64,000 bases of DNA from Caldilineaceae bacterium (GTDB taxonomy: Bacteria > Chloroflexota > Anaerolineae > Caldilineales > Caldilineaceae), in the NCBI GenBank assembly GCA_965204025.1, contig OZ241972.1, positions 4,762,006 to 4,826,005 on the forward strand. The letters are read 5' to 3'. A program made the translations under genes and the position numbers. The notes below the pieces were generated by a model. The model searched no databases. It had not been told where the DNA came from and saw nothing but the letters and a program-made list of their open reading frames with translations. Shown in pieces: positions 8,991-37,677 of the stretch. Numbering within the stretch: position 1 is the stretch's first letter; the number at the start of each line of letters is the position of its first letter.

Positions 8991-9849
8991 CTACACTCCG
9001 TTGCGCCAGCCGTCCTCCTTGCGGTACACGTAGTCGGGGTCCTCGGGGCCCAAAACCCGCAGCCTTTCCTCCACGGGAAAGTCGGTCATCGCCATCCGGA
9101 TCGACTTGCGCGACATGCCCGCAAAAAAAAATTGACCAGCACCGACAGGCTGCCCGCGTCCGCCTGTTGCATGCCATGCAGGTAGGCGTCGCGGTCCTGC
9201 CGCTGGACCAGGAGCGGCAGCCAGCCGTTGCGGATCAGGTGCCAGTTCAACAACACGCGGCCCGTGCGCCCGTTGCCGTCCGCAAAGGGATGGACCTGGA
9301 TGAAACGATGGTGCATCCAGGCCCCCGTCAGCAACGGATGGCGGTTCGCCTCGTAGTCCGCGTACAACTCCAGCAGGATGTCCAGTTGGGGATCCACCTG
9401 CTCGGGCGGCGCGTAGAGATGCTTCGTGCCATCGGGGCGCGTCGGGTTGTTGGGAAAGTCCTTCCACACCCCGCGCCGCAGCGGACGCTGCACGGGCCGG
9501 CCCAGCATGTCGACCGCGTTGTGGGTCTCCTGGTGGGCGGTGATCTGATGCCCGCCGGCGCACCGTCCCCGCGGGTGGCGTCCGCCGGTTCGAATCCGAT
9601 CTCGTCGCGCAGGCGCTGCGCGGATTCAATAATCGGTTGCGCCTGCCGCAGGGCCGCGGTGACGGCTTCCATGCGCGAACCGCCCCGTCCCAGCACAAGA
9701 TCGTCGGTTGCCATGCCTGCGGGCACGTACAGGCGCGCGTTCTTCAACACGGCCGTCCAGCGGCCGTTGTTGTCCTGCACGACCTCGACGGCCGGTGCGG
9801 CCGCGCCGGGGCTCGGGGGTCTCATCACCGGCTCTCGGATGTACCTCAC
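8991..9849 (-). pseudogene. Fic/DOC family protein, two frameshifts
   Basis: Fic motif HPFADGNGRTGRVLLN lies in ORF 9086..9508. The N-terminal part is in ORF 9328..9849. The C-terminal part (AGMSRKSIRMAMTDFPVEERL...) is in a third frame, beyond the A9 run at 9123-9131. Confidence 0.7.
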
Positions 9850-10342
9850 CGTGGAGGAGGACAGCTACGGCTGCAAGCAGCTCTACGCCCACGAGAAGCA
9901 ACCGAACTGCTACCACCCCGTCCAGTTCGACCACCACGACCTCGTGGTGTTGCTGGACATCATGGAGATGGCGTTGGCCGCCACGCCGGCCGTCCACATG
10001 CTGGGCGATCTCCCGCCGAACACCGAGCACGCGCTGGCCGACGTGGGCCGCCGCGAGCACGAGATTGTCCGCCATGCGCGCAAACTGCTGTCCAACCTTC
10101 GGCAGGAACGCAAGGACACCCTTGCCCGGCAGCGCGAGGCGGAATCGCGCGAACGCGCACGCGAGGTCGAACAGGCGCAGTGGCGGGCGGACCGCGCACT
10201 GTGGCGGACGGAACGCGAAGGATTTGCCGCCGAACGGGCGCAGTGGGAGCGGGACCGCGCCCGTTGGCAGGCCACACCGCAGGAGACGGACCACAAGGAG
10301 GCCGACCATGAAGGTGCGGGAACTGATTGCGCAACTGAGTGA
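9839..10342 (+). CDS. MYLTV-family coiled-coil protein, copy 1
   Basis: MYLTVEEDSYGCKQLYAHE..HPVQFDHHDLVVLLDIMEMALAATPAV parallels MYLTVKEDIYGRKRLYTYN..HPIELEHNHLRLLVSVMDMALAANPLV at 32417-33016. The tail is highly charged and rich in R, E, Q and W. Confidence 0.7.
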   Translation: MYLTVEEDSYGCKQLYAHEKQPNCYHPVQFDHHDLVVLLDIMEMALAATPAVHMLGDLPPNTEHALADVGRREHEIVRHARKLLSNLRQERKDTLARQREAESRERAREVEQAQWRADRALWRTEREGFAAERAQWERDRARWQATPQETDHKEADHEGAGTDCATE

Positions 10343-10568
10343 GTGCGATCCCGACGCGCCGGTGTGGACGATCGACACCTGCGAGTGCTGCACGACCTTC
10401 AGCGAGCTCGAAGCCGCACACATCGGCGAGCAGCACCTGTCGAAACTGCGGCTGACGACCCCCAGCGCACCGTTCGCGCCCGAGGTGTCGGACGCATCCG
10501 CAGCCTGGCCCAAGCCCTTGGTGGTGATCGCCGGCGGCAGATGGAGCCGGTTCCCGGACTGGCCCTGA
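10305..10568 (+). CDS. MKVxELI small cysteine-motif protein, copy 1
   Basis: RBS aaggagg. Sequence MKVRELIAQLSECDPDAPVWTIDTCECCT...PLVVIAGGRWSRFPDWP. It overlaps the end of the upstream gene. Close paralogue at 31986-32246. Confidence 0.75.
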   Translation, partial: TMKVRELIAQLSECDPDAPVWTIDTCECCTTFSELEAAHIGEQHLSKLRLTTPSAPFAPEVSDASAAWPKPLVVIAGGRWSRFPDWP

Positions 10569-16609: not shown

Positions 16610-17883
16610 TCAGTCCGGCTTCAGGGACTTGCGCGACAGGCGGTACCAGAGGATGTCGCCGTCGTCCACCAGTTTCTGGACCGCGCGGTCGTTCTGCACG
16701 CTGGACACCACGGCGTGCGCCTTGACCCCCGTACTCTGCGTCAGCAGATCGGCATTGCGCAGGGCCCGGTTCGAGTCCCCCTCGTTGCGGTGAAGGAGGC
16801 TTCGACGGCCACATAGGCGCGCGTGCCGTCGGTTCGGTGTACACAATCCATGACCAAATCCGCTACGCAGAAGCTCTCCGGGGTCCCGGGCGCCAACGTC
16901 GGGAGCAAGGGTTCGATCAGGTCGTTCAGGTCCGCGCGTTCCAATACCTTGACCACTTTCAGGCCCAGGAGGGCCTGCGCCAGGATGAAGCACCGGGTAC
17001 GCGTGACCCGGCCCGCAACATCGCCCTTGAGGTCGCCCATGTCATCCGTGAGGGTTTTCAGACTCTTGTCTATCCCATCCAGGCGACCCTCTATCCGTGC
17101 CTGGCCTTCGGTGAGGGGTTTCTGGCCCTCCTGTGGTTCGCCCACAATATCGGTGAGGGTTTTCACCTCGTCGGTGAGGGCTTGCACCCCCTCGGTGAGG
17201 GGTTTCTGGCCCTCCTGTGGTTCGCCCACAATGTCCGTGAGGGTATCCACCCTCTCGGTGAGGGTTGCCTGCCCCTCCGTGAGGGTTTTCTGGCCTTCGG
17301 TGAGGGTTTTCAGACTCTCGTCTACCCCATCCAGGCGACCGTCTACCCCATCCAGGCGACCGTCCATCCGGTCCATGCGGCCCGCCAGCCGGACCTGTCC
17401 CTCGGACAGGGTTCGGAAACCTGCGCCCGTCTGCTCGGCGAGGCGCAGGATCGCATCGGCAACGACGCGGTTGTCCGGGGGCCGGTCCTCGGGCTGGTTG
17501 TCCAACACGTTTTTTAGATCCATGAGGAAAGGGTCCCAATCCAACAATTCGGGGTTGGTGTCGGCGTCGGTCTCCATGCGCAACAGGCGTACCTCCACCG
17601 TCCAGCGCCCGCAACGCAACAGGAAAGAACCCAGTTCGTTGTCGGTGCCGTAGTGCGTTGAAAGCAAGCGCTTGAGATCGGCCTCCAGATCCTGTCCCCG
17701 GTGCCAGAGATCCACCTTGACCTGCGGCAGGCGTTCCCACGCATCCGACAGAACCGCCGCGCCGGATTTCAGCAGGTCGCCCGCCTTCACGAGCACCGGC
17801 CGCAGGCGGACGAAGTCCGTCTCCGGATGAGTGGTCGCATCCTTGATTCGGATGGTGGGTTCACGCGGGGGTTTCAGGAACAC
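16610..17883 (-). pseudogene. coiled-coil plus PD-(D/E)XK-like family, member b (frameshift near 16800)
   Basis: ORF 16741..17883 ends FCVADLVMDCVHRTDGTRAYVAVEASFT. The expected tail NEGDSNRALRNADLLTQSTGVKAHAVV...DILWYRL is in ORF 16610..16993. Confidence 0.6.
17040..17400 (-). repeat. In-frame tandem repeats encoding the coiled coil of member b
   Basis: A 39-nt exact repeat, ggtgaggggtttctggccctcctgtggttcgcccacaat, occurs at 17110-17148 and 17194-17232, a period of 84 nt. Many ggtgagggtttt-type 12-mers are also present. The encoded peptide reads TLTEGQ / IVGEPQEGQKPLTEG / GRLDGVD. Confidence 0.8.
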
Positions 17884-22342: not shown

Positions 22343-22577
22343 GGCACAAGCCTCGGAGTTCGGCGGTGGGTGGCAGCGTGCGTTCTCTTAATTTAACCAC
22401 CCGCAGGCACGCCGCGCAAGCAAGCGCATGCTCCCGTCCGCGCGGGGTTTTCTGTTTGGCCCGGATGCGTCCGCGCCCGGAACATTGCGCAGTTGCGCAC
22501 TGCGCCCAAACGCCTGCCTTTCGCCTAGGCGGCCCATATACAATCCCATAGGTTCGTCGATTTGAAACACACCCCCC

Positions 22578-24332: not shown

Positions 24333-24434
24333 CGCCGACGGCCGTACCCGCCAGGTTGAGGGTGCCGGCTGGGCGGCGGACCGGTGGGACCGCACCCGCC
24401 CAGCGTATCGCACCAAGGTCCGCGCGGCGGCGCG

Positions 24435-25340: not shown

Positions 25341-25906
25341 CGCAAACCCGATCCGAAACCCCTGTTCGGAGCCAACGCACGGCCCTGGCCGAGGTCCGCC
25401 GCGCGAATGTGCGCCGGCCCGTCGACTTCGGCGACCTGGCCAAACCCGTTCACAGCCCCCCACGCACGCCCGATCCACCCATCGATCCAGCCGAACTCGA
25501 TGCCCTGGCCGCAAACGCGCCGAGGTGACGTTCAGCGACGAACCCAAACCGCGGGAATCGCCCGATTCGGCGGGATCGGGGTCCGATCCCCCGCAAACAC
25601 CACCCCTGAAAGTTCCCAGGAGGAGCCGAGCCAACGTCCTGCAACCTGCAGGCCCCCTGACATCCGGGTCGTCGAGCCGACCACGGAGCCCCCCATGACG
25701 GCAGACAACTTGGCCGCCGAGGACCGACCTGGGAACGGACCCCCACATCGCCGCGGTGTGGGTCCGGAGTTTGCGCTCCGCGAAGAACTTATGTCAACAT
25801 GCGGGGATTGACAACGAGGCCCTGATCATAACCGGCAATGACGAACGAACACCGACGGAAGCGGAACTGGCCGCGAAGCGGAAGCTGTGGCAGGAGGAGG
25901 CCGACG

Positions 25907-26206
25907 ATGAAGGTGCGCGAACTGATTGACCAACTGGGCGAGTTCGATCCCGACGCGCCGGTGTTCACCGTCGACCCCATGCACAACTGGGTGGCGTACT
26001 GCGAAGTCACCGACCGGTGCGTGGGCCAACAGCGGATTGAGGATCTCGACAATGAGAACGATCGCCATGTGATCGAACTCGACAAGTTGGCCATCGCAAA
26101 CCGGAACCTGCACCCGCGCTCGCCCGGCACCAACGAGTGGACCGCCCCCGCGATCGTGATCGCAGGGCCGAGTTGCAGCTTCCACGACCGGAAGGATGAA
26201 TGGTGA
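25907..26206 (+). CDS. MKVxELI small protein, copy 2 (divergent, lacks the Cys cluster)
   Basis: RBS aggaggagg. Sequence MKVRELIDQLGEFDPDAPVFTVDP... Confidence 0.65.
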   Translation: MKVRELIDQLGEFDPDAPVFTVDPMHNWVAYCEVTDRCVGQQRIEDLDNENDRHVIELDKLAIANRNLHPRSPGTNEWTAPAIVIAGPSCSFHDRKDEW

Positions 26207-26366
26207 AGGTCAAGGAACTGATCAAGGCCCTGCAGGACCTCGATCCCAACGCGCCGGTCTGGACGATCGACACCTGCGAGTGCTGCACCGCGCACGAAGC
26301 ACTCGACACCACCCGGCGGCCCATGGGACTCCCGTTTTTGGCCCGTATCACAGGAGGCAACCCATG
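26200..26366 (+). CDS. MKVxELI small cysteine-motif protein, copy 3 (55 aa, below the ORF-track cutoff)
   Basis: My own translation: MVKVKELIKALQDLDPNAPVWTIDTCECCTAHEALD... It overlaps the stop of the upstream gene and shares an ATGA overlap with the downstream start. Confidence 0.6.
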
Positions 26367-27308
26367 AAGACGGACGACATCGGCGAGCGGTGGGCAAACG
26401 CCATGCGCACACTGCATGGTCTGGTGGAGGACCTGTACGCGGACAGGATGCGGCGGGAATTGCAGGACGTGATCCGCCAGGCGTGCCGCATGGGCGACGT
26501 GCCGCCACCGGAGGCCGTCGACCTGGTGTGGGAGTTTTTCGGGACGGGCATCGACAACTCCCGGTGGCGGAAACAGTGCCGTCACCTGGGCGTGGCCCCC
26601 GACGCCCAGATGCAGTTCTGCCATTTCATCTACGAGGTGCGGTGGCCGCAGGACGCCGGTCGCCCACCGGTGCTGCCGCCGCTGCTGTTCGTGGGCGAGG
26701 TTGCCCTCGAGGTCGACGACCGCGTGTTGGCCCTGGCGGCCGGCCATCGCCAGGACCTCGATGCCGGCACACGGGACGGCTACGTGCTGGTCGTCGGAGA
26801 CCGTTTCAGCGAGGAGCTGGCCGCACGAGACGGCGGCGGCGCAGTGGCCAGCTCCGGCGCGCACTTCCTGCACCGGCCGAAGGATCGGGATGATGTCCCA
26901 TTCCTGAGCGACGTCTCGACGGTGACGGCCCTCATGCAGGACTGGGCTGCGCAGCACGCGGACGACGGGCACACCGAGACATGTTCGGACCAGGCCCAGG
27001 ACGGGGTTCCCGGAGCCAGCGGGCGGGCAACGGCACCCATGATCAACCCCAGTACACGGAAGCAGGGCCTGGCCCTGCGGCTGACGGTCGGCCACAGCGG
27101 CCGCTCCCCCGATTGCGGCTGCTTTCACCGAATCGGGAGGCGCTGTGCTTCGCTTCCCGGGCGTTTTGCGGGGTCCCGAGGGTTAGGGGTCGGGGACGTT
27201 CGCCCCATTTGCAGGGGTTCGCGTCGCGGCCGCCGCCCGGAACAGCAGGCGCGCACCGGGCCCATCCGGCCAGGTAGGCCCCGGCAGCGGTCAACGGAAA
27301 CCCCATGA
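26364..27308 (+). CDS. coiled-coil plus PD-(D/E)XK-like family, member c (short N-terminus, suspicious C-terminal tail)
   Basis: FCHFIYEVRWPQD..LLFVGEVALEVDDRVLALAAGH...YVLVVGDRFSEE...HFLHRPKDRDDVPF is collinear with the C-terminus of member a. The last roughly 100 aa are low complexity and may be read-through. Confidence 0.55.
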   Translation: MKTDDIGERWANAMRTLHGLVEDLYADRMRRELQDVIRQACRMGDVPPPEAVDLVWEFFGTGIDNSRWRKQCRHLGVAPDAQMQFCHFIYEVRWPQDAGRPPVLPPLLFVGEVALEVDDRVLALAAGHRQDLDAGTRDGYVLVVGDRFSEELAARDGGGAVASSGAHFLHRPKDRDDVPFLSDVSTVTALMQDWAAQHADDGHTETCSDQAQDGVPGASGRATAPMINPSTRKQGLALRLTVGHSGRSPDCGCFHRIGRRCASLPGRFAGSRGLGVGDVRPICRGSRRGRRPEQQARTGPIRPGRPRQRSTETP

Positions 27309-27324
27309 CGGCAGGGAGGACGGA

Positions 27325-28419
27325 ATGGCCACACGACACGATCCGCGTGCCCTGACGGTCGCACAGCACCTGCAGGCGCGCGTGGCTCCGGCCGAGGTGA
27401 TCCTGTTCGGGTCGCGCGCCCGCGGCGATTGGCACGCCGCATCCGACATCGACCTGATGGTCGTGGCCGATCGGCTGACGGACGCACAGCGCCTTGAATA
27501 CTCGCAGCTGGGCTGGCGCGTACTGAAACCGGAGACCGCCCATCTGTACCCGGAGCCGGTCGACGTGCAGGTGTTTGCCATGGAAGCCGAGGAATTCAAT
27601 TGGGCCCGCCGGGCGCGCATGCATCTGGCCGGTGCGGCGCAGCACGACGGGCTGACCGCCCGGGGGGAACGGGTGCGGCCGATCGAACAGAACGACCCCT
27701 GGCCGTCCGTTCAGAACCTGTTGCAAAGGTGCCACAAGGCCTTGTTCCACGCCCTGCGCGCCGAGGGCGACGGCAATGGCGCAACCAGTGTCCTGCAGGC
27801 CCACGACGCACTGCAAAAGGTCCTCAAAGCCCATGTGAGCGCGTTGGGCCGCACCTTTCGCAAGACCCACGACCTGAAGAGGCTGATCACGACTGTGGAG
27901 GGAGTTGAGCAGTGCGTGGACTTCTCGCATTTGACCGACGCGTGGTGCGACGCGCTGGGCGAATATCGCCGCTACGGCCCCTACGAATTCGGCCGGCCCC
28001 TGTTTGAACCCAGTGCGCACACGGTCAACCTCGTGCAAGCCACCTGCGGGGCCGTCGCGGCGCGCGTGCTTGCCATCGTGGAACGCAAACCCGGCGACGT
28101 GGAGTACCACTATTCGGAGCGCGAGAGGTACCCGCCGTTTGATCCCGACCGGCCGCTCGGCGGCCTGGAGGACCTGCGGCCGGCCGCTGTCTCGACCGAC
28201 AGCGTCCTCGCCGCAGAGAGGCGCAGGGCATTGCTGGGGGTGGCTCGCCGACTGTTCGAACATCCCCGGCAGGTGGACGATCTGCGCGACCATCTGGACC
28301 GGAATCCGCGCGCCGCCTGGCCGTCGGTCGTGGACCTTATCGACGGGCGCCGCCCGCCGTTCGGCGGGAACGGCGATCGGCGGGACGCCGACCAACTCAA
28401 GCCGCCGCGCGGTTGGTGA
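27325..28419 (+). CDS. MNT-type nucleotidyltransferase fused to a HEPN domain
   Basis: NTase motif VILFGSRARGDWHAASDIDLMVV. HEPN-type R-x5-H in LGRTFRKTHDLKRL. A C-terminal extension of about 100 aa follows. Confidence 0.75.
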   Translation: MATRHDPRALTVAQHLQARVAPAEVILFGSRARGDWHAASDIDLMVVADRLTDAQRLEYSQLGWRVLKPETAHLYPEPVDVQVFAMEAEEFNWARRARMHLAGAAQHDGLTARGERVRPIEQNDPWPSVQNLLQRCHKALFHALRAEGDGNGATSVLQAHDALQKVLKAHVSALGRTFRKTHDLKRLITTVEGVEQCVDFSHLTDAWCDALGEYRRYGPYEFGRPLFEPSAHTVNLVQATCGAVAARVLAIVERKPGDVEYHYSERERYPPFDPDRPLGGLEDLRPAAVSTDSVLAAERRRALLGVARRLFEHPRQVDDLRDHLDRNPRAAWPSVVDLIDGRRPPFGGNGDRRDADQLKPPRGW

Positions 28420-28751
28420 GCCCGACCCAAACTGTCCAAATCGGTGCTGGACACTGGCGTCTAGCGCAAGTCGCAACGCTCGGAGGCCAGTTCCTGTTCG
28501 CACGACACGCAGGGGTTGTGCCGTACGGCTGTGGACACAATGGTACCTACCAGTCCCCGGGCGACGGGCGATCGGCGCGGTCGTCGGGCAGGCATCCTGC
28601 GGGGTCGGGTTCGAGCAGATCCGGCCAGGCGGACGGCGCGGCGCGCACGCCCTGCCGGGCGTCACGGTTGTCCCTGGTCTGGACCTTAAGCGTTGGATGG
28701 TGTATGTTGACATAACCCCTTCGATCGTTGAAGCATGCAAGGAGATTGCCC

Positions 28752-29174
28752 ATGGACACACCGACCCGCCCCAACTGGTCGACCAACCTCCCGCCGGAGC
28801 CGATCGACGACGACCAGGAACTGAGTCCGACGGAGAGCCTGGCCTACGCGTATCTGGAGACCGCGCTGACGAGCCAGCCGGACGCGATCGCGTTCAGCGA
28901 GGAGATCCGGGAGCAGCTGCTCCCGGCCTGCCGGCGGGCCGCGCAGACCGACCTGAGTCTGAGGGAGACGTCCCTGCCGAACGACCAGAGGAAGGAGATC
29001 GTGATGGCGCAGCTGTGGGAGGAAGTGCTGCCGCTGCTGCCGAACGACGACCCCGACCTGCTCAACGCGGAACATCCGACGGGCTGGGATCCGTCGCTGG
29101 AGGAGGATGATGAATTGGAGTACGCGCGGACACACACGGAGGCGATTGCATCATGCGCCACCACGTCGAGTTGA
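28752..29174 (+). CDS. acidic hypothetical protein
   Basis: RBS aaggag 8 nt upstream of ATG 28752. It overlaps the next gene by 22 nt. Confidence 0.55.
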   Translation: MDTPTRPNWSTNLPPEPIDDDQELSPTESLAYAYLETALTSQPDAIAFSEEIREQLLPACRRAAQTDLSLRETSLPNDQRKEIVMAQLWEEVLPLLPNDDPDLLNAEHPTGWDPSLEEDDELEYARTHTEAIASCATTSS

Positions 29175-29881
29175 TCGTGCCGCCCACTATCATGCCGCCC
29201 ACGCCTTTGGCCAAAATCAAGGAGCGCGTGCTTGATGTCATGTATCCCCTGAGCGGATGGGCCAGGGAGGAAAACCTCTACGACTGCCTCTACGACTGGC
29301 TCTACTTCGGCGGAAACTTTGCCGGCACCAAGCTCTACCTGCGGCTCGATCCCGAACGGCGCCGCCAATTCTGGGATGAGCTTGACCGCGAGTCGTTCAG
29401 CACCGACAACCGTATCAGCCAGGGCAATGTTGAAGAGCGCAGCAGTTTCGACCTGGACAGATTCTGGAGTGAGAATTCCCTCTTGTGGGGCATCGAGGGC
29501 GATATCGAAGACCACGAGAGCAGTATCGACCCGGGCAGAATTTGGAGTAAGAGGGACCTTCCGAAAGTGGACGCCCTGTGGCGCAAGTGGTTTCCCGAGG
29601 AGGAGGTCGGTAAATTCCCCCTGTCCCCCTACTACCCGGAAGGGGAGCAGGATATCTGCCGGGTTGACCAGATCCCCGAAAAGCTCACAGCCTACGCGGT
29701 GGTCGTGGCCAACGAAGACAAGGAACTTTTCCAGTTCAGGGTCGAGCTTTGGGGCGAACCCGTAAGGCGAAGCACGGTCTTTAACGGTTTCGTGCTCGAC
29801 GCCTTGCGCCAGTGCCGCGCCTGCGGTGTCGAGCCCGCGCCGGACTGGCTGGCGGTAACGCTGGATTGCCGCCACGGTTGA
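29153..29881 (+). CDS. hypothetical protein (Trp/Asp-rich)
   Basis: Lower GC than the surroundings and good protein-like composition. No motif recognised. Confidence 0.6.
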   Translation: MRHHVELIVPPTIMPPTPLAKIKERVLDVMYPLSGWAREENLYDCLYDWLYFGGNFAGTKLYLRLDPERRRQFWDELDRESFSTDNRISQGNVEERSSFDLDRFWSENSLLWGIEGDIEDHESSIDPGRIWSKRDLPKVDALWRKWFPEEEVGKFPLSPYYPEGEQDICRVDQIPEKLTAYAVVVANEDKELFQFRVELWGEPVRRSTVFNGFVLDALRQCRACGVEPAPDWLAVTLDCRHG

Positions 29882-29990
29882 TCCCCACGCGCCCAATCAA
29901 TCCCCGCATCCCGGCCCTGCCGTCGTTGGATCCGCCATGGACCCCGTCGATCCGGATTGCGGCCTTGCACGGTCGGCATCCGCTCCGCCC

Positions 29991-30974
29991 TCAACCCGCG
30001 AACTCCGTGTCGCCGTGCCAGTCCCGCGCGCGCAGCCACGGCACGGTGGCGTCCACGGGGACCACGCCCGATTCCCGGTAGGGCCGGTTTGGATCCCCCT
30101 CCGCGTTGTCCCAGGTGGGATCGGTGCGGCCTTCGGCCACGGCCGTCGCAAAGGCCAGGGCCTCGTCCAGGCGGGCGGCCAGAAAGTCCCGCAGCGGACG
30201 GACCGCGGCTTCACGGGCCGGCACGTCCAGCGGTTCCATGCCGGCCAGGGTTGCGAAGTAGTCGGTCCGCTGGTCGAGCGTGACGACCAGCGGCGGGTAA
30301 CCTGCGTTCATCGCCATCCAGTTGACCAGCCAGCGCGCCATGCGGCCGTTGCCGTCGTCGTAGGGATGGATGGCGATGAAGTCCCAGTGCAGGGAGGCGA
30401 TCGCCCAGGCGGGGTCCAACGCCTGCGGATCATGGGCCAGGATGTCAATACGCTGGTGCATGCGGTCCAGCAGTTGATCCATGAGGTGCGGCACCGCGTC
30501 CGGCGGCTGGAACACCACCAGCCGACGCGCGGAGCGGAGGGCGTTGGGCATGTTCTTGAATCTACCCAGCGCCACCTGGCCCGACGGCTGTCCGGCCGTG
30601 TTGTGGGCCGCATACGACCGCACCAGCATGTGTCTGTGCGTGGTGTGCAGGTCCTCGATGTCCAGGCGGTGCCTGCGGTTGACCATCCGCGTCAACAGGT
30701 GTACGGCCTCGTTGTGGCCGCGCATCTGGTCGACATCGAGGAGTTTCGTCCATCCGCCGGCGGGCGTGCGCCCGTGTGCGAGGACGGCCAGCGTGTCCGC
30801 ATACGACAGGCTGCCACCCTCGATGGCGTTGGAATGGCAACTCCAGCGCAGGCGCACGTTGCCCCACCACTGGCGCAGCACGCGATCGGTCATCGACGGG
30901 GCCTCGTGCCAGCGGCGGCGGCCCTCCCGCAGCCGCCCGGCGCCGACCGTTGATGCGGGTGATCGCCTTCTCAA
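29991..30974 (-). CDS. Fic/DOC family protein (intact)
   Basis: Fic motif HPYDDGNGRMARWLVN. An alternative start lies at 30893. It begins 12 nt after the stop of the upstream gene. Confidence 0.85.
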   Translation of the reverse strand: MRRRSPASTVGAGRLREGRRRWHEAPSMTDRVLRQWWGNVRLRWSCHSNAIEGGSLSYADTLAVLAHGRTPAGGWTKLLDVDQMRGHNEAVHLLTRMVNRRHRLDIEDLHTTHRHMLVRSYAAHNTAGQPSGQVALGRFKNMPNALRSARRLVVFQPPDAVPHLMDQLLDRMHQRIDILAHDPQALDPAWAIASLHWDFIAIHPYDDGNGRMARWLVNWMAMNAGYPPLVVTLDQRTDYFATLAGMEPLDVPAREAAVRPLRDFLAARLDEALAFATAVAEGRTDPTWDNAEGDPNRPYRESGVVPVDATVPWLRARDWHGDTEFAG

Positions 30975-30986
30975 GGTCCTGTCAAA

Positions 30987-31589
30987 TTAGAAGGCGAGTG
31001 CACCGGGGAATTCCGAGTGCTGCCACAACAGGGCCTGCGCGAGCATGTAGCGCGCCCCAGTCTGGGCGCGCGGCATGGCGAAATCCAGCCAGCAGCCGCA
31101 GCCGGGCGGCAACAGGCTGCCGGCCTCCAGGAACCAGCGCCGCACCTCGATGTCCCACACCAGTTCGCCCACACGGTGGCCGTCGACCAGGATCCGATAG
31201 GCGTCGGCGTCGGTGTCGTCCCGGCGGTCGGGCGGCGACGAGGGCTGGAACTCGATTGTCGGCACGGTCTCCAACGCGCGCTCGAAGCGGCTCCAGCGCG
31301 CCTTCCACCAAATCCACCAGCGCTGCACGAGTTCGGCCCCGTCGCGGGTTTCGAGATGCACGAGCGGCCGCAGCAGCGAGCGGCCGGTGTTCCAGACGCG
31401 GACCACCGAACCGTCGGGGAACGTCCAGCCCGCGGTCTGCGAAGGGTAGGGTTCGCTCTGCGCGCCGCGGCGTTCCAGCACGCGCTCAAGGTCGTGGGGC
31501 GGAATGTCCTCGCGCCCGCAGTCGCCGATGAACGCGTGGGCCTGCGACCGGCACGCGGCGGGTATTGTCGATTGGGTGTCCATGGTCAC
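30987..31589 (-). CDS. hypothetical protein upstream of Fic
   Basis: The start abuts the stop of the preceding ORF (gtgaccatgg). Trp-rich. No motif recognised. Confidence 0.6.
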   Translation of the reverse strand: MTMDTQSTIPAACRSQAHAFIGDCGREDIPPHDLERVLERRGAQSEPYPSQTAGWTFPDGSVVRVWNTGRSLLRPLVHLETRDGAELVQRWWIWWKARWSRFERALETVPTIEFQPSSPPDRRDDTDADAYRILVDGHRVGELVWDIEVRRWFLEAGSLLPPGCGCWLDFAMPRAQTGARYMLAQALLWQHSEFPGALAF

Positions 31590-31974
31590 GTCCTCCGATC
31601 AGCTGTGTCTGTGCATTGTGTGCGGATGCTCGATGGCGTTGGAGTGCCAGCGGCGGCGGCCAGGGCCGCGGCCAAGCCGGCCTTGAGGGCGTTGTGGGCG
31701 ACCTCGAAGTTGTAGTCGTCGCGGTCCGCTTTGCCGTCCTCGTTGCCGGCAAAGTTGAACAGCAGCCGGGACACGAGGGCCTGGCAGGTCTTGAGCGAGG
31801 CTTCGAGGTCAAGGAGTTGAGGATTTTTCTCAGGTCCTCGTGTTTCAGGATGCGGACCACTTCCAAACCCAGGAGATCCTCCGGCAGGGAGAAGCGCCGG
31901 TCGTACGTCAACCGGGCCGTGGCATTGTCCTTGAGGGTTTTCAGATCCACGAGGAAAGGGTCCCATTCCAACAA
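31586..31974 (-). pseudogene. coiled-coil plus PD-(D/E)XK-like family, member d (coiled coil deleted, frame change near an A5 run)
   Basis: LLEWDPFLVDLKTLKDN and LLGLEVVRILKHEDLRKILNS match member b (LLDWDPFLMDLKNVLDN and LLGLKVVKVLERADLNDLIE). The tail LLFNFAGNEDGKADRDDYNFEVAHNALKAG is in the frame of ORF 31586..31966. Confidence 0.45.
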
Positions 31975-31985
31975 TTCGGGGTCGG

Positions 31986-32246
31986 TCAGTCGAAGTCCGG
32001 GTAGCGGCTCCACCGGCCGCCGGCGATCACGACCAGCGGCTTCGCCCAGGCGGCCGTCGCGTCGGACACATCGTAGATCTCTGCCTCGCGCTCGGCCCAC
32101 AGCTTGAGTTTCTCGAGTTGCTGCGCGCCGATGTGCGGGGCCTCCAGTTCGACGAAGTGGGTGTGGCAGTCGCACGTGTCGATCGTCATCACCGGCGCGT
32201 CGGGATCGAGGTCCTGCAGGGCCTCAATCAATTCCCTAACCTTCAT
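31986..32246 (-). CDS. MKVxELI small cysteine-motif protein, copy 4
   Basis: MKVRELIEALQDLDPDAPVMTIDTCDCHTHF...PLVVIAGGRWSRYPDFD. It overlaps the upstream gene by 11 nt. Confidence 0.75.
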   Translation of the reverse strand: MKVRELIEALQDLDPDAPVMTIDTCDCHTHFVELEAPHIGAQQLEKLKLWAEREAEIYDVSDATAAWAKPLVVIAGGRWSRYPDFD

Positions 32247-32430
32247 CGTCGGCCTTCTCGTCGGGGTCGTCTGCTGGTGCGAGTGCGTCCGCCGTGGCGG
32301 TCCGCACGGGTTCGTTCCGACACCCGGGCGGGATCTCATAGAACTCGCAGCATCCGCACTCATTGAGAATGGACACTTCAGTGTCGGGATCCATCCTGCT
32401 TAGTTTGTCAATCAAGTCACTGACCTTCAC
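32236..32430 (-). CDS. MKVxELI small cysteine-motif protein, copy 5
   Basis: MKVSDLIDKLSRMDPDTEVSILNECGCCEFYEI... It overlaps the upstream gene by 14 nt. Confidence 0.65.
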   Translation of the reverse strand: MKVSDLIDKLSRMDPDTEVSILNECGCCEFYEIPPGCRNEPVRTATADALAPADDPDEKADDEG

Positions 32431-33016
32431 CGTCGGCCTCCTGCTGCGCGGCCTGCCACTGCTCCCGTTCGCGCTCCCACTGTTCGCGTTCCCGCTGCCA
32501 CTGTGCCCGTTCCTGCTGCCTTTTGCGTTCGCGCCGTTCTTCCTGGAGCCGCTGCTCGCGTTGCGCTTCCTCCGCCTGCCTCAGGCGCGCATAGGTGTCC
32601 TTGCGTTCCCGGTCGAGGGTCTCCAGCTGGCGGCTGGTCTCGCGGATGACCGCGTGCTCTCGCTGGAGCACGCTGGCCAGCAACCCCTGCTCATCGTCCA
32701 CATAGTCGTCCATCAGCGGATTCACCAGCGGATTGGCCGCCAGCGCCATGTCCATGACGGAGACTAGTAGCCGGAGATGATTGTGCTCCAACTCGATCGG
32801 ATGGAAATCATTGCCGTAGCTGTTGTAGGTATAGAGACGCTTGCGGCCGTAGATGTCCTCCTTGACGGTGAGGTACATCTCGTTGCCGACGTTGAAATCC
32901 CTGGTCATGTGTCGGGGTCCTCCGTTGTTCGCATAACCAATGTTGACATAACGCGTCGCGGATCGCAAAACAACGGAGCCGTACCCGTCTGCGGTGGGCG
33001 GTCCGGGATTGGCCAA
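32417..33016 (-). CDS. MYLTV-family coiled-coil protein, copy 2
   Basis: Paralogue of 9839-10342. The C-terminus is a charged repeat: QREQRLQEERRERKRQQERAQWQREREQWEREREQW. The true start may be internal. Confidence 0.7.
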   Translation of the reverse strand: MANPGPPTADGYGSVVLRSATRYVNIGYANNGGPRHMTRDFNVGNEMYLTVKEDIYGRKRLYTYNSYGNDFHPIELEHNHLRLLVSVMDMALAANPLVNPLMDDYVDDEQGLLASVLQREHAVIRETSRQLETLDRERKDTYARLRQAEEAQREQRLQEERRERKRQQERAQWQREREQWEREREQWQAAQQEADGEGQ

Positions 33017-33183
33017 CTCCCTGCGCGCATCGTTGAATCGCCGACATCCGGCCCAGGGCGGGTTCCGGCTCCGCGACGTCCTCGGCGGCCGCCGTCACAA
33101 AACCCGTTCCCGAATTCCATGTACCGCTTCCGGGGTGACTTTGCGTTTGCGATACACTGCGAGCCGGCCACCGGTCGGCAATC

Positions 33184-33282
33184 ATGAAGATCGGCTACGC
33201 GCGCGTCTCCACTCCAGAACAGCAGCTCGACGCCCTCCGGACCGCGGGATTGCCCGCCCAAGGGGCAGGATCGGGGGGCTGA
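33184..33282 (+). pseudogene. serine recombinase (resolvase/invertase) N-terminal stub
   Basis: MKIGYARVSTPEQQLDALRTAGLP is followed by a stop after 32 codons. Confidence 0.6.
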
Positions 33283-33284
33283 CG

Positions 33285-33893
33285 ATGGCCACCGCGGGGA
33301 AGCGCGACCAGGACCTGTGGGCGCGAAGGCCCGTCCTATGGACTTTCAAGCAGGATTGGCCCCTCTATCTGGCGCTGATGCTGCTGGTCGTCGTCGTGCT
33401 GTTCCAATTCAACGAGGTCCTCGACGCGCGGGACGCACAGCGCGCCCGGGCGGCGCTTGTGGCCCGGTGCGACCTGGCGGCCGGCGGTGGCGTCGATCCC
33501 GCCTTCGGTGGGCAAGTGGCCCGCCCGGAGGAGCGGTGGGACGACCGCACGGTCGCCCACTATGCCGGCATCGTGGTCGGGGGCCCGTCGGCCGCCGGTT
33601 TTTGGGGCACGTACAGCAGCCCGGATCGGGAGCTCGGCGAAGTTGTATTCGTGCAGGTCGAAGGCCGGGCCAAACCCCTGGCCGTGCGGGGGCGGGACGG
33701 GGCCCTCGCCCCGGTCGGCAGTGAGCTGCGCTTCTGCGCGGCCAGCGACGGGCCCGGCTTCTGGTGGCCGATCGTCGGCTACGCGGCCGGGCGGGGCGGC
33801 GGCCGGCGCTACGGCGAACCGTCCGGACCGTTCGACACCGTGGTGTGGCTTGCCGAACTGCCCGCCGGTGGCGGGCTCGATCTGGAGGGCTGA
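33285..33893 (+). CDS. membrane-anchored hypothetical protein
   Basis: ATG at 33285. TM helix WPLYLALMLLVVVVLFQF. No motif recognised. Confidence 0.5.
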   Translation: MATAGKRDQDLWARRPVLWTFKQDWPLYLALMLLVVVVLFQFNEVLDARDAQRARAALVARCDLAAGGGVDPAFGGQVARPEERWDDRTVAHYAGIVVGGPSAAGFWGTYSSPDRELGEVVFVQVEGRAKPLAVRGRDGALAPVGSELRFCAASDGPGFWWPIVGYAAGRGGGRRYGEPSGPFDTVVWLAELPAGGGLDLEG

Positions 33894-34353
33894 CGTGGAC
33901 GAGTGCGACGCGCTGAGGGAGGACCTGCGCGGGGAGGGGCGATCCGACAGGGGACCCCAACGACCCGTGAACAAGGGTGGACGCCGGGCCAAAGCCTGGA
34001 TCTGCTGAGTGCCATGGGGACAGGACGTGAACCGCAAGCTCCGCGCCGACATGCACCAAGGGTTCGACCAGCTGCACCTCCGCTTCGACCGGTTCGAGGC
34101 GCGCATGCACCGCGGCTTCGACAACGTGGGGTTCAGCGACTGCTGTCCGTAGTCGCGGTCACTCCGGACATTCCCGATGTAGTGCGAGAACCGCTCAACC
34201 GTAGCTTGCGCTTAAGGCTGCCGCGCCTGTACGGTGCCGCTTGTCGCCGTTCGAGCGAACTGTCATGTGACACCGATTTCCGAGGGGGGCTGGGAAATCC
34301 TCCTGGACAGCGGTAACACGCCTCCCGGCTGCTGGATTCAGGGGGCCGGCGAC

Positions 34354-34880
34354 CTACGGGGCATCGGGAATCTGCCCATTTGGGGGCCGGTGCTTGCCCA
34401 GGAACTCTTCGGGGGCCGTGACAACCAAATCCAGGCGCTGGCGCAGTTCGGATGCCAGCCTCAGCACGGGCTTGTCCCACGTCAGGAACACGTCCCTGTT
34501 GGCCAGATGGTGGCCGTGGAGATGATCCCAGTCGCGCGCATCGGGCAGCCCGGGATCTTTCGGCGTGCGCCGGTCGCAGATTGAGTCCTCGACTGCAAGG
34601 AACCGCTTAGAGGGTGGCTTGTCCGCTCCCAGGATCCAGTAGCCCAACCTGGTGACCGAGGGGATTTCCAGGACATCCAGTTTGTCGAGTTCCTCCTTGA
34701 GGCGGCCGGCCCAGGGTTCGGCGGGAATGTCGGCATGGACACGGCTTGTGACCACCAACTCGACTTGTCCGTGCCGTTGCAACTCCAGCAGTTTGCGTAC
34801 GCAGGACGCCTTGGCCCGGTCTTTCCAAAGCGCCCAAAGGAGGTTGGTGTCGGGGATGGGATCCGGGCGGTGGCCGTCAT
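34354..34880 (-). CDS. PIN-like domain protein (tentative), N-terminus frameshifted or unresolved
   Basis: In frame upstream of ORF 34354..34782 I read DPIPDTNLLWALWKDR. Later acidic motifs are DARDWDHL and FLTWD. The only ATG (34880) lies in another frame. Confidence 0.35.
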
Positions 34881-35068
34881 CTTTCTGGCAATCCTGCTGC
34901 TGGGCCTATCGACCCCAAGAGATTAAGCCCATTAGGGTGAATCGTTGTGACGTTCCCCATCGGTAAGAGTTGAACGCGGCGCGCCTTGTGCGGCCCCGCG
35001 GCAGCACCCTTCGGCCCAGATGGCCGGTAAGATTCCAACCGTCGAAACCAGAGAGACAACTGTTGCCC

Positions 35069-35326
35069 ATGTCATCCAATGAACTTCTCTGTCCGATTTG
35101 GGAAACCGCACCCTTCCCGCGGGAAATCGGGCATCACGGACGACTCTGTGACTCCCCGCGGGCCGGCGGCCGCTTCAAACTCGAATATTCGGGCACCGTT
35201 GAACTCAGGCCGAATTATCGCTCTCTGACCGACGCGCAGAAGGCCAACCTGAGCTACTGGATCTACCGGCACAACCACCCCTCCTATCTCGACCGAGGGG
35301 CGTGGCGGTGTCCGGTGACCGCATGA
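35069..35326 (+). CDS. small hypothetical protein
   Basis: MSSNELLCPIWET...SPRAGGRFKLEYSGTVEL...LTDAQKANLSYWIYRHN. No motif recognised. Confidence 0.4.
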   Translation: MSSNELLCPIWETAPFPREIGHHGRLCDSPRAGGRFKLEYSGTVELRPNYRSLTDAQKANLSYWIYRHNHPSYLDRGAWRCPVTA

Positions 35327-35420
35327 GCCAGACCACAGTCTGTTGGTCGCGGCTGGCATTTTGGCCCGGGCGGCTCCTGTACAATCCCGCAGGTTCCCGC
35401 CGCGGCCCGGACACACCGCC

Positions 35421-36532
35421 ATGCGCATACTTCCGCCCCTGCATCCCACCGACGCCGACTTTGCGGCCATTCGCCGCCGGGATGGCTTCTACGTGGACAA
35501 GACCGGTTTGTTCCGGGATCTGCTTGAGGCGGATCCAAGCCCCCTGTCCAGTTCACCGCTGACCACGCGCCACCAGTTCCTGGCGCGTCCGCGGCGGTTT
35601 GGCAAGACGCTGCTAATCAACACGCTGGAAGCTTGGTTCCAGGGTTGCCGCCGGGTCACAGGGCCAATCCCGAAGGCGACACCAAGCCCCTGGAGGGCCT
35701 GCCCGCGGGCTGGACTTCGCCGCCGTGGCTGTGGGAGGGCCTGGATGCCGAGGACTGGCATGGAACGCATGGCTGGCATCCCGTGATTCGACTGGATTTG
35801 TCCCGTGCGGCGGCTTCATCGCCCGCCGGTACACTCACATACCTGCAGAACTACCTGCACAGCGTGATCCGGTTGTGGAGGCGACGCAGTGGCAGCAGTT
35901 GGATCGGTACCGAGGTTCCGCCCACTGCGTCGCCGGCGGAACTCCTGACCACCCTCGTTGAAGACCTTGCGGAAATTTACGAACCGGAACCCGTGGTCCT
36001 GGTCGACGAGTACGACGCGCCCGTTGTCAACCACATCGGGACCGACCGTTCCCTGGAACCCGCGGTCGCCGAACTCCGCGAATTCATCCGTGTGCTGAAG
36101 GACGACGAGGGCCTGCTCTACGGGGTGTTCGTGACGGGCATCACGCGCTTGGCCAAGCCGCACCTGTTCACCGCGGCCAACAACTTCGTCGACATCTCCG
36201 ACGAGCCCAGGTACGGGGCGCTGTGCGGTTTCACGGAGGACGAAGTGGACCGGCACTTCGCCCCCTACCGGGCGCGCCTCGCGGAACTGGAGCCGGGACT
36301 GGACGATGCGGCCATTCGGGCCGCGTGGCGGGATCTCTACAACGGCTACCGCTTCTCGGAACTGCCCTCGACCCCGCGCGTCTACAACCCCTTCACGCTG
36401 ACCAACGGGGTGTTCCGCGTGCTCGCGGAGCCGGATCGCCGCCGCGTGGCGGCGGACGGCACCTGGCCGTCGGCCTGGGGCGAGTCCGGTCACTCGGGTC
36501 TCATCGCGCGTCTGGCCGCAGACCCGCGCTAG
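35421..36532 (+). pseudogene. AAA-ATPase-like / PDDEXK_9 family, paralogue 2 (frameshifted, 3-prime truncated, abutted by IS630)
   Basis: About 80% similar to paralogue 1. It has caggg-ttgcc at about 35640 where paralogue 1 has cagggg-ttgcc, so one G is missing. The reading frame ends at the IS630 junction and the PD-(D/E)XK C-terminal domain is absent. Confidence 0.75.
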
Positions 36533-37677
36533 TGCACGCTTGCGTAAGTACTGTGTCTAAAATAGGGGCTGCATGGACCCCCACAGACATCAGCAGGCGA
36601 TCATGGCACGCACCCGCGGTTTGACCTTGCAGGCGACGGACCAACCGACCCTGGAGCAGTGGGCGCGGTCGCAGAGCCTGCCCCACCACCAGGTGCAGCG
36701 CGCCCGCATGCTGCTGGGCCTGGCGGCCGGGCAGACCCTGGCCGCCGTCGCGGCCACCGTGGGCACCAGCGACGAAACGGTCGCGCGCTGGCGCAACCGG
36801 TACCTGGCCGAGGGCTTGGCGGGACTGGCGGACCGCCCCCGCAGCGGTCGTCCGCCGACCTACACGGACGCGGACCGGGAGGCCATGTGGAAGAAGCTGC
36901 AGGCGGACCCGCCCGACGGCCACACCTGCTGGAGTCTGAGCCTGATGGCCCGGGAGACCGGCATCTCGACCGCCCAGCTGAGCCGCTGGTGGTCGGCGGC
37001 CGGGATCCAGCCCCACCGCGTGCGCACCTTCAAGCTGTCCAACGACCCCCGGTTCGAGGCCAAGCTGCGCGACGTGATCGCAGTCTACGAAAAAAAAGCG
37101 CGCCCGACGTTGTGAGACTGTGCTTCGACGAGAAGCCCCAGATGCAGGCCCTGGCCCGTACCCAGGCCGGCCTGCCCGCGAGTGCCGGGCGCCCCGCCAC
37201 CCGTACCCACGACTACGTCCGCCACGGCACCCTCTCCCTGAGGGCCGCCCTGGACCTGGACACCGGTCGCATCTACTATGCCTGTGCCGCCCGCAACCGG
37301 CATCAGGAGTTCCTGGCCTTCCTGCGCCAGCTGACACGGCGCTTCCCCACCCAGCAGGTGCATCTGGTCCTGGACAACTACTCCCCCCACAAGCACCACA
37401 AGGTGAAGGCCTGGCGGGAGGCCCATCCCCGCTTCCACTTCCACTTCATCCCCACCTATTCCTCCTGGTTGAACCGGGTCGAGTCTTGGTTCAGCACCCT
37501 GCAGCGTCAGGTCATGGACCGCGGCTCCTTCGACGATGTGGCCGACCTGCAGGCGACCCTGGGCCGCTACGTGCGGGGCCACAACCGCCGGGCCACGCCT
37601 CCCCGGTGGAAGGTCAAGGCCGATGCCATCCTGGCCCAACTCGCTCAGATCCGCAGAACTTACGAAATGGTGCACTA
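36530..37677 (+). mobile_element. IS630-family insertion sequence
   Basis: Imperfect terminal inverted repeats: tagtgcacgcttgcgtaagt and acttacgaaatggtgcacta. A TA dinucleotide sits at both junctions (36530-31 and 37676-77). Confidence 0.8.

What the first reader, a model, noticed from the sequence alone, without database searches (positions are those of the whole stretch)
29991..33016. Six-gene, tightly overlapping minus-strand operon ending in an intact Fic protein
Seen in the sequence, gene order on the minus strand:
1. MYLTV coiled-coil protein (33016-32417).
2. MKVSDLI small protein (32430-32236; overlaps the previous gene by 14 nt).
3. MKVRELI small protein (32246-31986; overlaps by 11 nt).
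4. A shortened member of the coiled-coil plus PD-(D/E)XK-like family (31974-31586; starts 12 nt after the previous stop).
5. A 200-aa Trp-rich protein (31589-30987; its start abuts the previous stop).
6. Fic with HPYDDGNGRMARW (30974-29991; 12-nt gap).

Parts of the same set recur with the other Fic gene (8991-9849 next to 9839-10568) and at 25907-27308.

Established knowledge: Fic proteins are AMPylating toxins or regulators, usually controlled by a single small antitoxin or an inhibitory helix. A five-gene upstream train is not the textbook arrangement.

Inference: this is a composite Fic-associated module, or a phage- or island-borne cassette, of unknown function.
Basis: partly seen in the sequence, partly recalled or inferred. 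Interest (0 to 1): 0.72.

Follow-up and report, generated by a model that had tools for sequence, protein, structure and literature searches.

The report
Mosaic island gene train ending in Fic
The supposed six-gene Fic operon is a patchwork in a variable genomic island: a rare two-gene cassette with a duplicated small gene, gene debris that includes a dead Fic fragment, one orphan gene, and an ordinary self-inhibited Fic enzyme that needs no partner.

Summary
The co-directional minus-strand train exists, but it is five genes plus debris, not six genes. 'Gene 4' (31974-31586) is 389 nt and changes frame twice. It is built from two blocks of a longer paralogue (16741-17883) and a 5' remnant of the Fic gene.

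The Fic (29991-30974) is intact. It has the catalytic motif HPYDDGNGRMAR and an in-cis inhibitory motif SNAIEG, and its best solved relative is BtFic (3CUC). It is therefore a class II, self-inhibited Fic, and none of the upstream proteins carries an antitoxin-type motif.

The recurrent unit is g1 followed by a translationally coupled small acidic 'MKV' gene (g3; g2 is a degenerate tandem copy). Both families are extremely rare: 5 clusters among 5.8 billion proteins, and 18 representatives among 1.84 billion. They have no Pfam, PDB, phage or plasmid relatives.

g5 homologues elsewhere are never adjacent to Fic. However, g1/MKV cassettes lie within 6 kb of a Fic gene or Fic remnant in five of about nine informative loci, involving three Fic subtypes. 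All of these loci come from what looks like one narrow clade of shared mobile or defence islands, with variable order and orientation.

Verdict: this is mosaic island cargo and probably not a dedicated multi-component Fic system. A loose MKV-Fic association remains unexplained.

The parts
32417..32907 (-). g1: 163-aa protein. It has a conserved N-terminal domain of about 65 aa (MYLTVEEDxYG...HPIxF..MDMALAA) followed by a charged coiled coil. The maximal ORF runs to TTG 33016, but homologues start at MTRDF.
32236..32430 (-). g2: 64-aa degenerate, truncated tandem copy of the MKV gene. It keeps MKVSDLI...CGCC but lacks the VVIAGGxW C-terminus. GTG start, overlapping the g1 stop by 14 nt. It is absent between g1 and g3 in L007.
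31986..32246 (-). g3: 86-aa acidic MKV-family protein (MKVRELI..DPDAPV..TCDCHT..VVIAGGRW). It overlaps the g2 stop by 11 nt.
31800..31985 (-). g4a: relic of the coiled-coil/PD-(D/E)XK-like family. It retains only blocks aa 109-129 and aa 281-326 of the paralogue 16741-17883. It has no start codon, no coiled coil and no C-terminal core.
31586..31774 (-). g4b: a second-frame stretch, called as a 62-aa ORF in the sister strain. It has no homologues anywhere and is of doubtful status.
31604..31661 (-). Fic 5' remnant made of three collinear blocks: 18/18 nt = Fic 30923-30906, 15/15 nt = Fic 30833-30819, then a block of about 22 nt resembling Fic around 30650-30629. In its own frame it reads GRRRWHSNAIE..HTMHRH.
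30987..31583 (-). g5: 198-aa Trp-rich orphan protein (5 clusters worldwide), preceded by a GGAGGA SD. The maximal ORF starts at GTG 31589.
29991..30974 (-). Intact class II Fic protein of 327 aa from TTG 30974. An alternative start at ATG 30893 gives 300 aa.
30816..30833 (-). Codons for the in-cis inhibitory motif S-N-A-I-E-G (aa 48-53).
30333..30368 (-). Codons for the Fic catalytic motif HPYDDGNGRMAR (aa 203-214).
9839..10342 (+). g1' paralogue, 41% identical to g1.
10308..10568 (+). g3' MKV paralogue, 66% identical to g3. It overlaps the 3' end of g1'.
9048..9544 (-). Fic-B pseudogene. The core is 65% identical to aa 166-312 of the intact L018 Fic. The N-terminal 165 aa are missing and there is a C-terminal frameshift.
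25756..26367 (+). Third cassette: a g1 C-terminal remnant (25756-25929), an MKV copy (25907-26206) and a truncated MKV copy (26200-26367).
16741..17883 (-). Full-length member of the coiled-coil/PD-(D/E)XK-like family. It is the source type of the g4a relic: 42/45 nt identical between 17555-17511 and 31982-31938.

Best explanation
The 3-kb train is an accretion of independent units inside a fast-changing mobile or defence island. It is not a six-component Fic system.

Unit 1 is the cassette that actually recurs: g1 followed by a translationally coupled, small, acidic MKV gene. The MKV gene, with its own Shine-Dalgarno site and start codon, duplicates in tandem, which produced g2. This also explains why each upstream ORF ends in the same '...ADxEG' tail.

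Unit 2 is a recombination scar. It holds an internally deleted piece of a nuclease-like paralogue and a dead 5' piece of a Fic gene.

Unit 3 is an orphan gene, g5.

Unit 4 is a stand-alone class II Fic AMP-transferase. Its active site is blocked by its own N-terminal inhibitory Glu (SNAIEG). It would act on a target only when that block is relieved, plausibly as an abortive-infection or addiction-type function like other island-borne Fic proteins.

Shown: gene structures, relics, motifs, rarity and genomic contexts. Inferred: read-through co-transcription (there are no terminators and only short gaps), functional independence of the units, and any defence role for Fic.
For: Gene 4 is debris:
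- It is 389 nt with two frame switches, and it matches paralogue and Fic fragments.
- The frameshifts are identical in a sister strain.

Fic needs no partner:
- Pfam Fic scores 52.9 bits against a cut-off of 24.
- The best PDB relative is 3CUC/BtFic, E=1e-28 over residues 11-283, with SNAIEG aligned to SNHLEG.
- Both the catalytic and inhibitory motifs are present.
- No (S/T)xxxE(G/N) motif occurs in g1, g2, g3, g4b or g5.
- PADLOC PDC-S04 (single-gene candidate) hits at 9e-26 and SoFic at 5e-17.

g5 is not a Fic partner:
- Its homologues are followed by a convergent 800-aa gene (L010/L011) or by SSB (L012).

The g1-to-MKV coupling is conserved without the rest of the train:
- L001-L006, L007, L016 and L018.

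The gene content between MKV and Fic varies:
- Relic plus g5 here, ParA plus RHH in L018, and a divergent orientation at window locus 2.

Island context:
-.
- There is a strain-level breakpoint at 36532.
Against: - Fic genes or Fic remnants lie within 6 kb or less of g1/MKV cassettes in 5 of about 9 informative loci: window loci 1 and 2, L001, L018 and L019. In L010 an MKV-type gene directly precedes a Fic. Three Fic subtypes are involved. This is more than a random genomic base rate would give.
- The Fic relic inside the train shows that Fic has occupied this position repeatedly.
- No transcript data exist.
- No function could be assigned to g1, MKV or g5. The AF2 models are weak (pLDDT 64 and 51) and there are no PDB or Pfam relatives.
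Confidence: 0.6

Rival explanations
1. This is a genuine multi-component Fic system. The g1/MKV proteins (and perhaps g5) would be regulators, sensors, decoys or targets of the Fic enzyme, co-transcribed with it and co-inherited as a module whose Fic component is exchangeable.
For: - Cassettes co-localise repeatedly with three Fic subtypes: the intact Fic-A (g6) at window locus 1, the Fic-B pseudogene at locus 2, a Fic-B remnant 2.2 kb from the third pair in L001, Fic-B 1.3 kb downstream in L018, an MKV-long gene overlapping a Fic-A-like gene in L010, and a Fic_N-type Fic 5 kb away in L019.
- The L010 Fic lacks its own inhibitory motif.
- The genes are tightly spaced and no terminator is predicted.
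Against: - Order, orientation and intervening genes differ at every locus.
- L008, L015 and L016 have cassettes without Fic.
- The window Fic is class II and self-inhibited. No upstream protein carries an inhibitory motif, including the L010 neighbour.
- All loci share several other clade-specific families, so they are not independent samples.
- Fic is common cargo of mobile elements: 171 plasmid records match.
Confidence: 0.17
2. This is an early or leading-region type operon of an integrated mobile element. It would be a train of small, acidic, overlapping accessory genes (anti-defence or establishment functions), with Fic as one more cargo or effector gene.
For: - Distant MKV relatives sit in long runs of 4-nt-overlapping small genes alongside Phage_P22_Y8K6, DUF488, DUF3150, AAA_25 replication-type ATPases, ParA and integrases.
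- MKV proteins are acidic, with pI 4.3-5.9.
- A g5 homologue sits next to SSB.
- MKV genes occur as tandem arrays of two or three copies.
Against: - No relatives were found in 2.9 million viral contigs, 50,697 phage records or 72,556 plasmid records.
- No conjugation, replication or integrase gene was seen among the window ORFs scanned.
- The anti-defence function is pure inference.
Confidence: 0.15
3. The upstream ORFs are all decaying pseudogenes or non-genes, and only Fic is functional.
For: - g4 is debris and g2 is truncated.
- Many paralogues in the window are frameshifted, including Fic-B, the 7519-8696 gene, and the MKV copy in L001.
Against: - g1, g3 and g5 are intact ORFs with coding GC3.
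- Their intact homologues are 46-76% identical and of the same length in other contigs.
- The start positions and the g1-MKV coupling are conserved.
Confidence: 0.05

Closest known systems
Class II Fic proteins (BtFic, PDB 3CUC; SoFic; FICD)
   Same: - A Fic core with HxFx(D/E)GNGRxxR.
- An N-terminal in-cis inhibitory helix motif (S/T)xxxE(G/N).
- Full-length similarity to BtFic, E=1e-28 over residues 11-283.
   Different: - Only about 30% identical to any solved or plasmid-borne relative.
- Tyr replaces Phe in the core motif.
- A C-terminal tail of about 45 aa is shared only with the L010 Fic.
- It lacks the SoFic-type C-terminal domain: NCBIfam SoFic scores 31 bits against a cut-off of 550.
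Class I Fic toxin-antitoxin modules (VbhT/VbhA, FicT/FicA) and Sofic/AS1
   Same: Small genes sit directly next to a Fic gene in a mobile or defence context. Small-protein control of Fic toxicity is known; for example, AS1 lies downstream of Sofic (PMC12249575).
   Different: - Here Fic has its own inhibitory helix.
- No neighbouring protein has the antitoxin motif.
- The adjacent upstream gene, g5, is not Fic-linked elsewhere.
- No small co-directional gene lies downstream; the next gene is convergent.
PADLOC candidate system PDC-S04 and the SoFic defence system
   Same: These are the best defence-library hits, at 9e-26 and 5e-17. Both are single-gene Fic systems located in defence islands.
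   Different: - PDC-S04 is a candidate system without a curated threshold here.
- Neither defence activity nor a trigger has been tested for this protein.
Type II toxin-antitoxin-like two-gene cassettes (analogy for g1-MKV only)
   Same: - Two small genes coupled by stop/start overlap.
- Several paralogous copies per genome.
- Located in islands next to IS elements and integrases, with frequent pseudogenisation.
   Different: - No sequence or fold relationship to any TA family.
- g1 is a coiled-coil protein.
- Tandem MKV arrays are not typical of TA systems.

Membership tests
Fic/Fido family | Pfam Fic domain above the gathering score | tested here: met
   PF02661 scores 52.9 bits against a cut-off of 24, E=6.7e-14.
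Fic/Fido family | Catalytic motif HxFx(D/E)GNGRxxR | tested here: met
   HPYDDGNGRMAR at aa 203-214, with Y in place of F.
Class II Fic (in-cis inhibition) | (S/T)xxxE(G/N) inhibitory motif on the same polypeptide, N-terminal to the core | tested here: met
   SNAIEG at aa 48-53, aligned to SNHLEG of BtFic 3CUC.
Class II Fic (in-cis inhibition) | AMPylation activity released by mutating the inhibitory Glu | not testable with these tools
   Needs biochemistry.
Class I Fic toxin-antitoxin | A separate small neighbouring protein supplies the (S/T)xxxE(G/N) helix, and Fic lacks its own | tested here: not met
   The motif is absent from g1, g2, g3, g4b and g5, and Fic has its own.
SoFic defence protein | Full-length match to the SoFic model (Fic_N + Fic + C-terminal domain) | tested here: not met
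   - NCBIfam SoFic scores 31 bits against a cut-off of 550.
- The PADLOC SoFic hit covers only positions 61-219 of 361.
- There is no Fic_N hit.
PADLOC PDC-S04 candidate | Match to the PDC-S04 profiles | tested here: inconclusive
   PDLC04840 hits at 9e-26, covering positions 10-197 of 227. There is no curated cut-off, and the family's function is itself untested.
Multi-gene Fic operon conserved as a unit | The same gene set and order with Fic in other genomes | tested here: not met
   The same order occurs only in the 99%-identical sister strain (L009). Every other locus differs.
Type II TA-like cassette (g1-MKV) | Homology to a known toxin or antitoxin family | tested here: not met
   - No Pfam, NCBIfam or PADLOC hits.
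- PHROG hits only to the 20-aa N-terminus, with E>=0.004.
- Foldseek best E is 2.2.

The most novel reading that the evidence does not exclude
The g1-MKV cassette may be a previously undescribed two-gene module that is functionally tied to Fic enzymes. It could act as a modulator, decoy or sensor that works in trans on exchangeable Fic partners. That would explain its co-localisation with three different Fic subtypes, and the Fic relic left inside the train.
Probability: 0.15. Interest if true: 0.6.

Novelty: new member of a known kind. Interest (0 to 1): 0.3.

Why it matters
If the best reading holds, the locus is an ordinary self-inhibited Fic gene sitting behind unrelated island cargo. The practical lesson is that tight, co-directional ORF spacing in a high-GC island is not evidence for an operon-level system.

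What remains of interest is small:
- Three orphan families (g1, MKV, g5) are confined to what looks like one clade and have no fold or family assignment.
- The MKV gene multiplies in tandem through a shared SD/start junction.
- MKV cassettes keep turning up near different Fic genes.

If that last association proved functional, it would add a new kind of trans-acting partner to Fic biology.

Tried and rejected
- Pfam, NCBIfam, PADLOC and PHROGs on g1-g5 gave nothing usable.
- The AF2 model of g3 had pLDDT 64, and Foldseek against PDB gave a best E of 2.2.
- The AF2 model of g5 had pLDDT 50.6, too poor for a fold search.
- Profile searches of the g1, MKV and g5 alignments against PDB sequences found nothing.
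- Scans of IMG/VR viral contigs with all three families found no relatives.
- Two scans of JGI metagenome contigs found none.
- GTDB species representatives returned only the sister-strain contig.
- tblastn of g3 against phage and plasmid collections found no match. Megablast of 24 kb of the window against plasmids found no match.
- tRNA and Rfam scans of the window found nothing.
- The promoter/terminator scan found nothing on the minus strand.
- Programmed frameshifting in g4 was considered and rejected. The frame changes coincide with the junctions between unrelated gene fragments.
- g5 as a Fic antitoxin was considered and rejected. It has no inhibitory motif and is not linked to Fic elsewhere.
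- The organism could not be named. The only titled record is labelled Nitrosopumilaceae, which is implausible at 66% GC.
Full report
**Observation**

The window is about 66% GC and has no tRNA or Rfam features. On the minus strand between 33016 and 29991 there is a run of co-directional ORFs with coding-type GC3.

- The g1 stop and the g2 GTG start overlap by 14 nt (GTGAAGGTCAGTGA).
- The g2 stop and the g3 ATG start overlap by 11 nt (ATGAAGGTTAG).

Three gene starts need comment:
- g1 most likely starts at ATG 32907, with a GGAGG ten bases upstream. All five homologous clusters start MTRDF / MARKF / MQWDF at that position, and 'MYLTV' is residue 11.
- g5 probably starts at ATG 31583, behind a GGAGGA. 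The gene caller chose this start for the sister strain.
- Fic may start at TTG 30974 or at ATG 30893. The alignment to BtFic begins at residue 11 of the long form, and the Fic relic (see below) also covers codons 19-24. Both points favour the long form.

**Gene 4 is not a gene**

- The stated interval 31974-31586 is 389 nt, which is not a multiple of 3.
- The GC3 frame plot changes frame at about 31810 and again at about 31650.
- The first segment aligns to two separated blocks of a full-length 380-aa paralogue at 16741-17883: residues 109-129 (71% identical; 42/45 nt at the DNA level) and residues 281-326 (39% identical). The N-terminal 108 residues, the coiled coil and the C-terminal nuclease-like core are therefore missing.
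- The proposed TTG start is the internal Leu of the PELL(E/D)W motif.
- The last 60 nt contain three collinear pieces of the Fic 5' region: 18/18 nt (31661-31644 = 30923-30906), directly followed by 15/15 nt (31643-31629 = 30833-30819), then a more diverged block. In its own frame this reads GRRRWHSNAIE..HTMHRH.
- A sister strain (L009/L013) is 99.2% identical over 14.5 kb. It has 11 substitutions and no indels across the train, so the frameshifts are real. The gene caller there called only a 62-aa ORF in this interval.

**The Fic protein**

- Pfam Fic scores 52.9 bits against a cut-off of 24.
- The catalytic motif HPYDDGNGRMAR lies at residues 203-214.
- The best solved relative is BtFic (3CUC), E=1e-28 over residues 11-283. 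SNAIEGGSL of this protein aligns to SNHLEGNTL of BtFic.
- The (S/T)xxxE(G/N) motif is therefore present in cis (SNAIEG, residues 48-53). From established knowledge of the Fic classes, this defines a class II, self-inhibited Fic.
- None of g1, g2, g3, the 62-aa ORF or g5 contains that motif.
- PADLOC gives PDC-S04 (9e-26) and SoFic (5e-17). The protein fails the NCBIfam SoFic equivalog by a wide margin, 31 bits against 550.
- Fic relatives at about 30% identity occur on 171 plasmid records.

**The upstream families**

All three are extremely rare.
- g1 has 5 clusters among 5.8 billion proteins.
- g3 has 5 clusters in that search and 18 representatives among 1.84 billion with full HMMER sensitivity.
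- g5 has 5 clusters.
- None has Pfam, NCBIfam, PADLOC or PDB relatives.
- None occurs in viral contigs, phage records, plasmid records or JGI metagenome contigs.

Family descriptions:
- g1 has a conserved N-terminal domain of about 65 aa followed by a charged coiled coil.
- The MKV family (g3) has the consensus MKVRELIExLxxxDPDAPVYTIDTCxCCTxF...VVIAGGxW and is acidic.
- g2 is a truncated, diverged MKV copy and is absent between g1 and g3 in L007.

The identical junctions have a simple cause. The '...QQEADxEG' tails of the upstream ORFs are the MKV gene's own SD (AGGAGG) and start (ATGAAGGT) read in another frame. The MKV cassette therefore duplicates and recombines as a unit.

**Linkage to Fic**

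| Locus | Content | Fic nearby? |
|---|---|---|
| L001-L006 (third paralogous pair, same genome) | g1-MKV pair | No intact Fic; a 39-aa Fic-B N-terminal remnant lies 2.2 kb away |
| L007 | g1, MKV, then an SH3 protein with an MKV-like N-terminus | Nearest Fic is 8.5 kb away (the L018 Fic) |
| L018 (same contig as L007) | Three distant g1-like genes, MKV, a 336-nt gap, ParA, RHH, Fic-B (333 aa, intact, motif TGAIEG) | Yes, 1.3 kb downstream of MKV |
| L008 | g1 only | None |
| L016 | g1, a 152-aa gene, MKV | None |
| L015, L021, L022 | MKV within runs of 4-nt-overlapping small genes, with phage- or plasmid-like neighbours | None |
| L019 | Three tandem MKV genes, then NTase-HEPN | A Fic_N-type Fic 5 kb upstream |
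| L010 | An MKV-long gene | Overlaps a 239-aa Fic-A-like gene that lacks an inhibitory motif |
| Window locus 2 | g1'-g3' pair | Fic-B pseudogene, lying divergently |

g5 homologues are followed by a convergent 800-aa gene (L010/L011) or by SSB (L012).

Taken together:
- The six-gene arrangement exists only in the sister strain.
- The recurrent core is the g1-to-MKV coupling.
- Fic is near the cassette in five of about nine informative loci, but with different subtypes, distances, orientations and intervening genes.
- These loci also share other clade-specific families: the X/Y nuclease-like family, the 152-aa family, the 242-aa family, SH3 proteins and NTase-HEPN. They are therefore not independent samples.

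**Context**

- The window from 1 to about 39 kb holds IS701-like, Tn5-like and IS630-like elements, three AbiEii-type genes, AAA_15/21, three AAA-ATPase_like/PDDEXK_9 paralogues, NTase-HEPN, Uma2 and STAND ATPases.
- Ordinary chromosomal genes follow: GH116 and a sugar ABC transporter.
- Synteny with the sister strain breaks at 36532.

**Interpretation**

- The best-supported reading (0.6) is mosaic island cargo: a g1-MKV cassette, a recombination scar, an orphan gene, and a stand-alone class II Fic. They are possibly co-transcribed by read-through, since no terminator is predicted.
- A true multi-component Fic system (0.17) is kept alive by the repeated MKV-Fic proximity and by the Fic relic.
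- A mobile-element early or leading-region type accessory train (0.15) fits the contexts of the distant MKV relatives. It lacks any phage or plasmid match.
- Pure pseudogene decay (0.05) is contradicted by the intact, conserved homologues.

**Novelty and score**

- The Fic is a new member of a known class.
- The upstream families are orphans of unknown function.
- Interest is 0.3.
- The most novel reading not excluded is an MKV/g1 module acting in trans on exchangeable Fic partners, with probability about 0.15.

Noticed in passing
window 21987-36532; L013/L014 (CBDHDZ010000015.1): The only titled public record that holds this locus (99.2% identical) is labelled 'MAG: Nitrosopumilaceae archaeon'. 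The DNA is about 66% GC with bacterial-type GGAGG ribosome-binding sites, so the contig is probably mis-binned or mislabelled.
   Followed up: partly
window 9048-9849: The second Fic gene is a pseudogene. Its core is 65% identical to an intact 333-aa Fic in L018, but residues 1-165 are missing and the C-terminus is frameshifted. In L018 the intact orthologue sits in a ParA-RHH-Fic arrangement.
   Followed up: yes
window 32417-32436, 32236-32252, 25907-25929; L016 9053-9075: Every ORF that runs into an MKV gene ends with the same '...ADxEG' tail. The tail is the MKV gene's SD and start codon read in another frame, so the MKV cassette moves and duplicates together with its translation-initiation region.
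   Followed up: yes
window 25907-28419; L019 7429-9888: Tandem arrays of two or three MKV genes are followed by a fused NTase-HEPN gene, both in the window and in a distant contig. The two NTase-HEPN proteins are 35% identical.
   Followed up: partly
window 12157-12567; L016 8617-9075; L010 1702-4797; L008 12004-12450: A further clade-specific family of about 152 aa (88% identical between the window and L016) travels with the g1/MKV cassettes. It occurs three times in L010.
   Followed up: partly
window 29153-29881: The 242-aa gene convergent to Fic has homologues 44-50% identical beside the Fic-B/restriction-modification block in L018/L007 and in L008. The flank of the Fic position is therefore conserved while the Fic subtype differs.
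   Followed up: partly
L001 7601-7795: A 64-aa ORF 2.2 kb from the third g1-MKV pair is an N-terminal remnant of a Fic-B-type gene, 54% identical over 39 aa to the L018 Fic.
   Followed up: partly
window 16741-17883: The full-length coiled-coil/nuclease-like paralogue contains internal near-perfect repeats (TLTDIVGEPQEGQKPLTEG twice, plus RLDGVD/TLTEGQ repeats). The g4a relic lacks exactly this repeat region.
   Followed up: no
window 22578-24332, 35633-36532, 37901-39742: There are three AAA-ATPase_like (PF09820) paralogues. The middle one is truncated where synteny with the sister strain breaks (36532), next to an IS630-like HTH ORF at 36573-37115.
   Followed up: no
window 9328-9849 (minus strand): The ORF that replaces the N-terminus of Fic-B (…GRWTAVLKNARLYVPAGMATDDLVLGRGGSRMEAVTAALRQA…) looks by eye like a HicB/UPF0150-type antitoxin domain. 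This was not tested.
   Followed up: no
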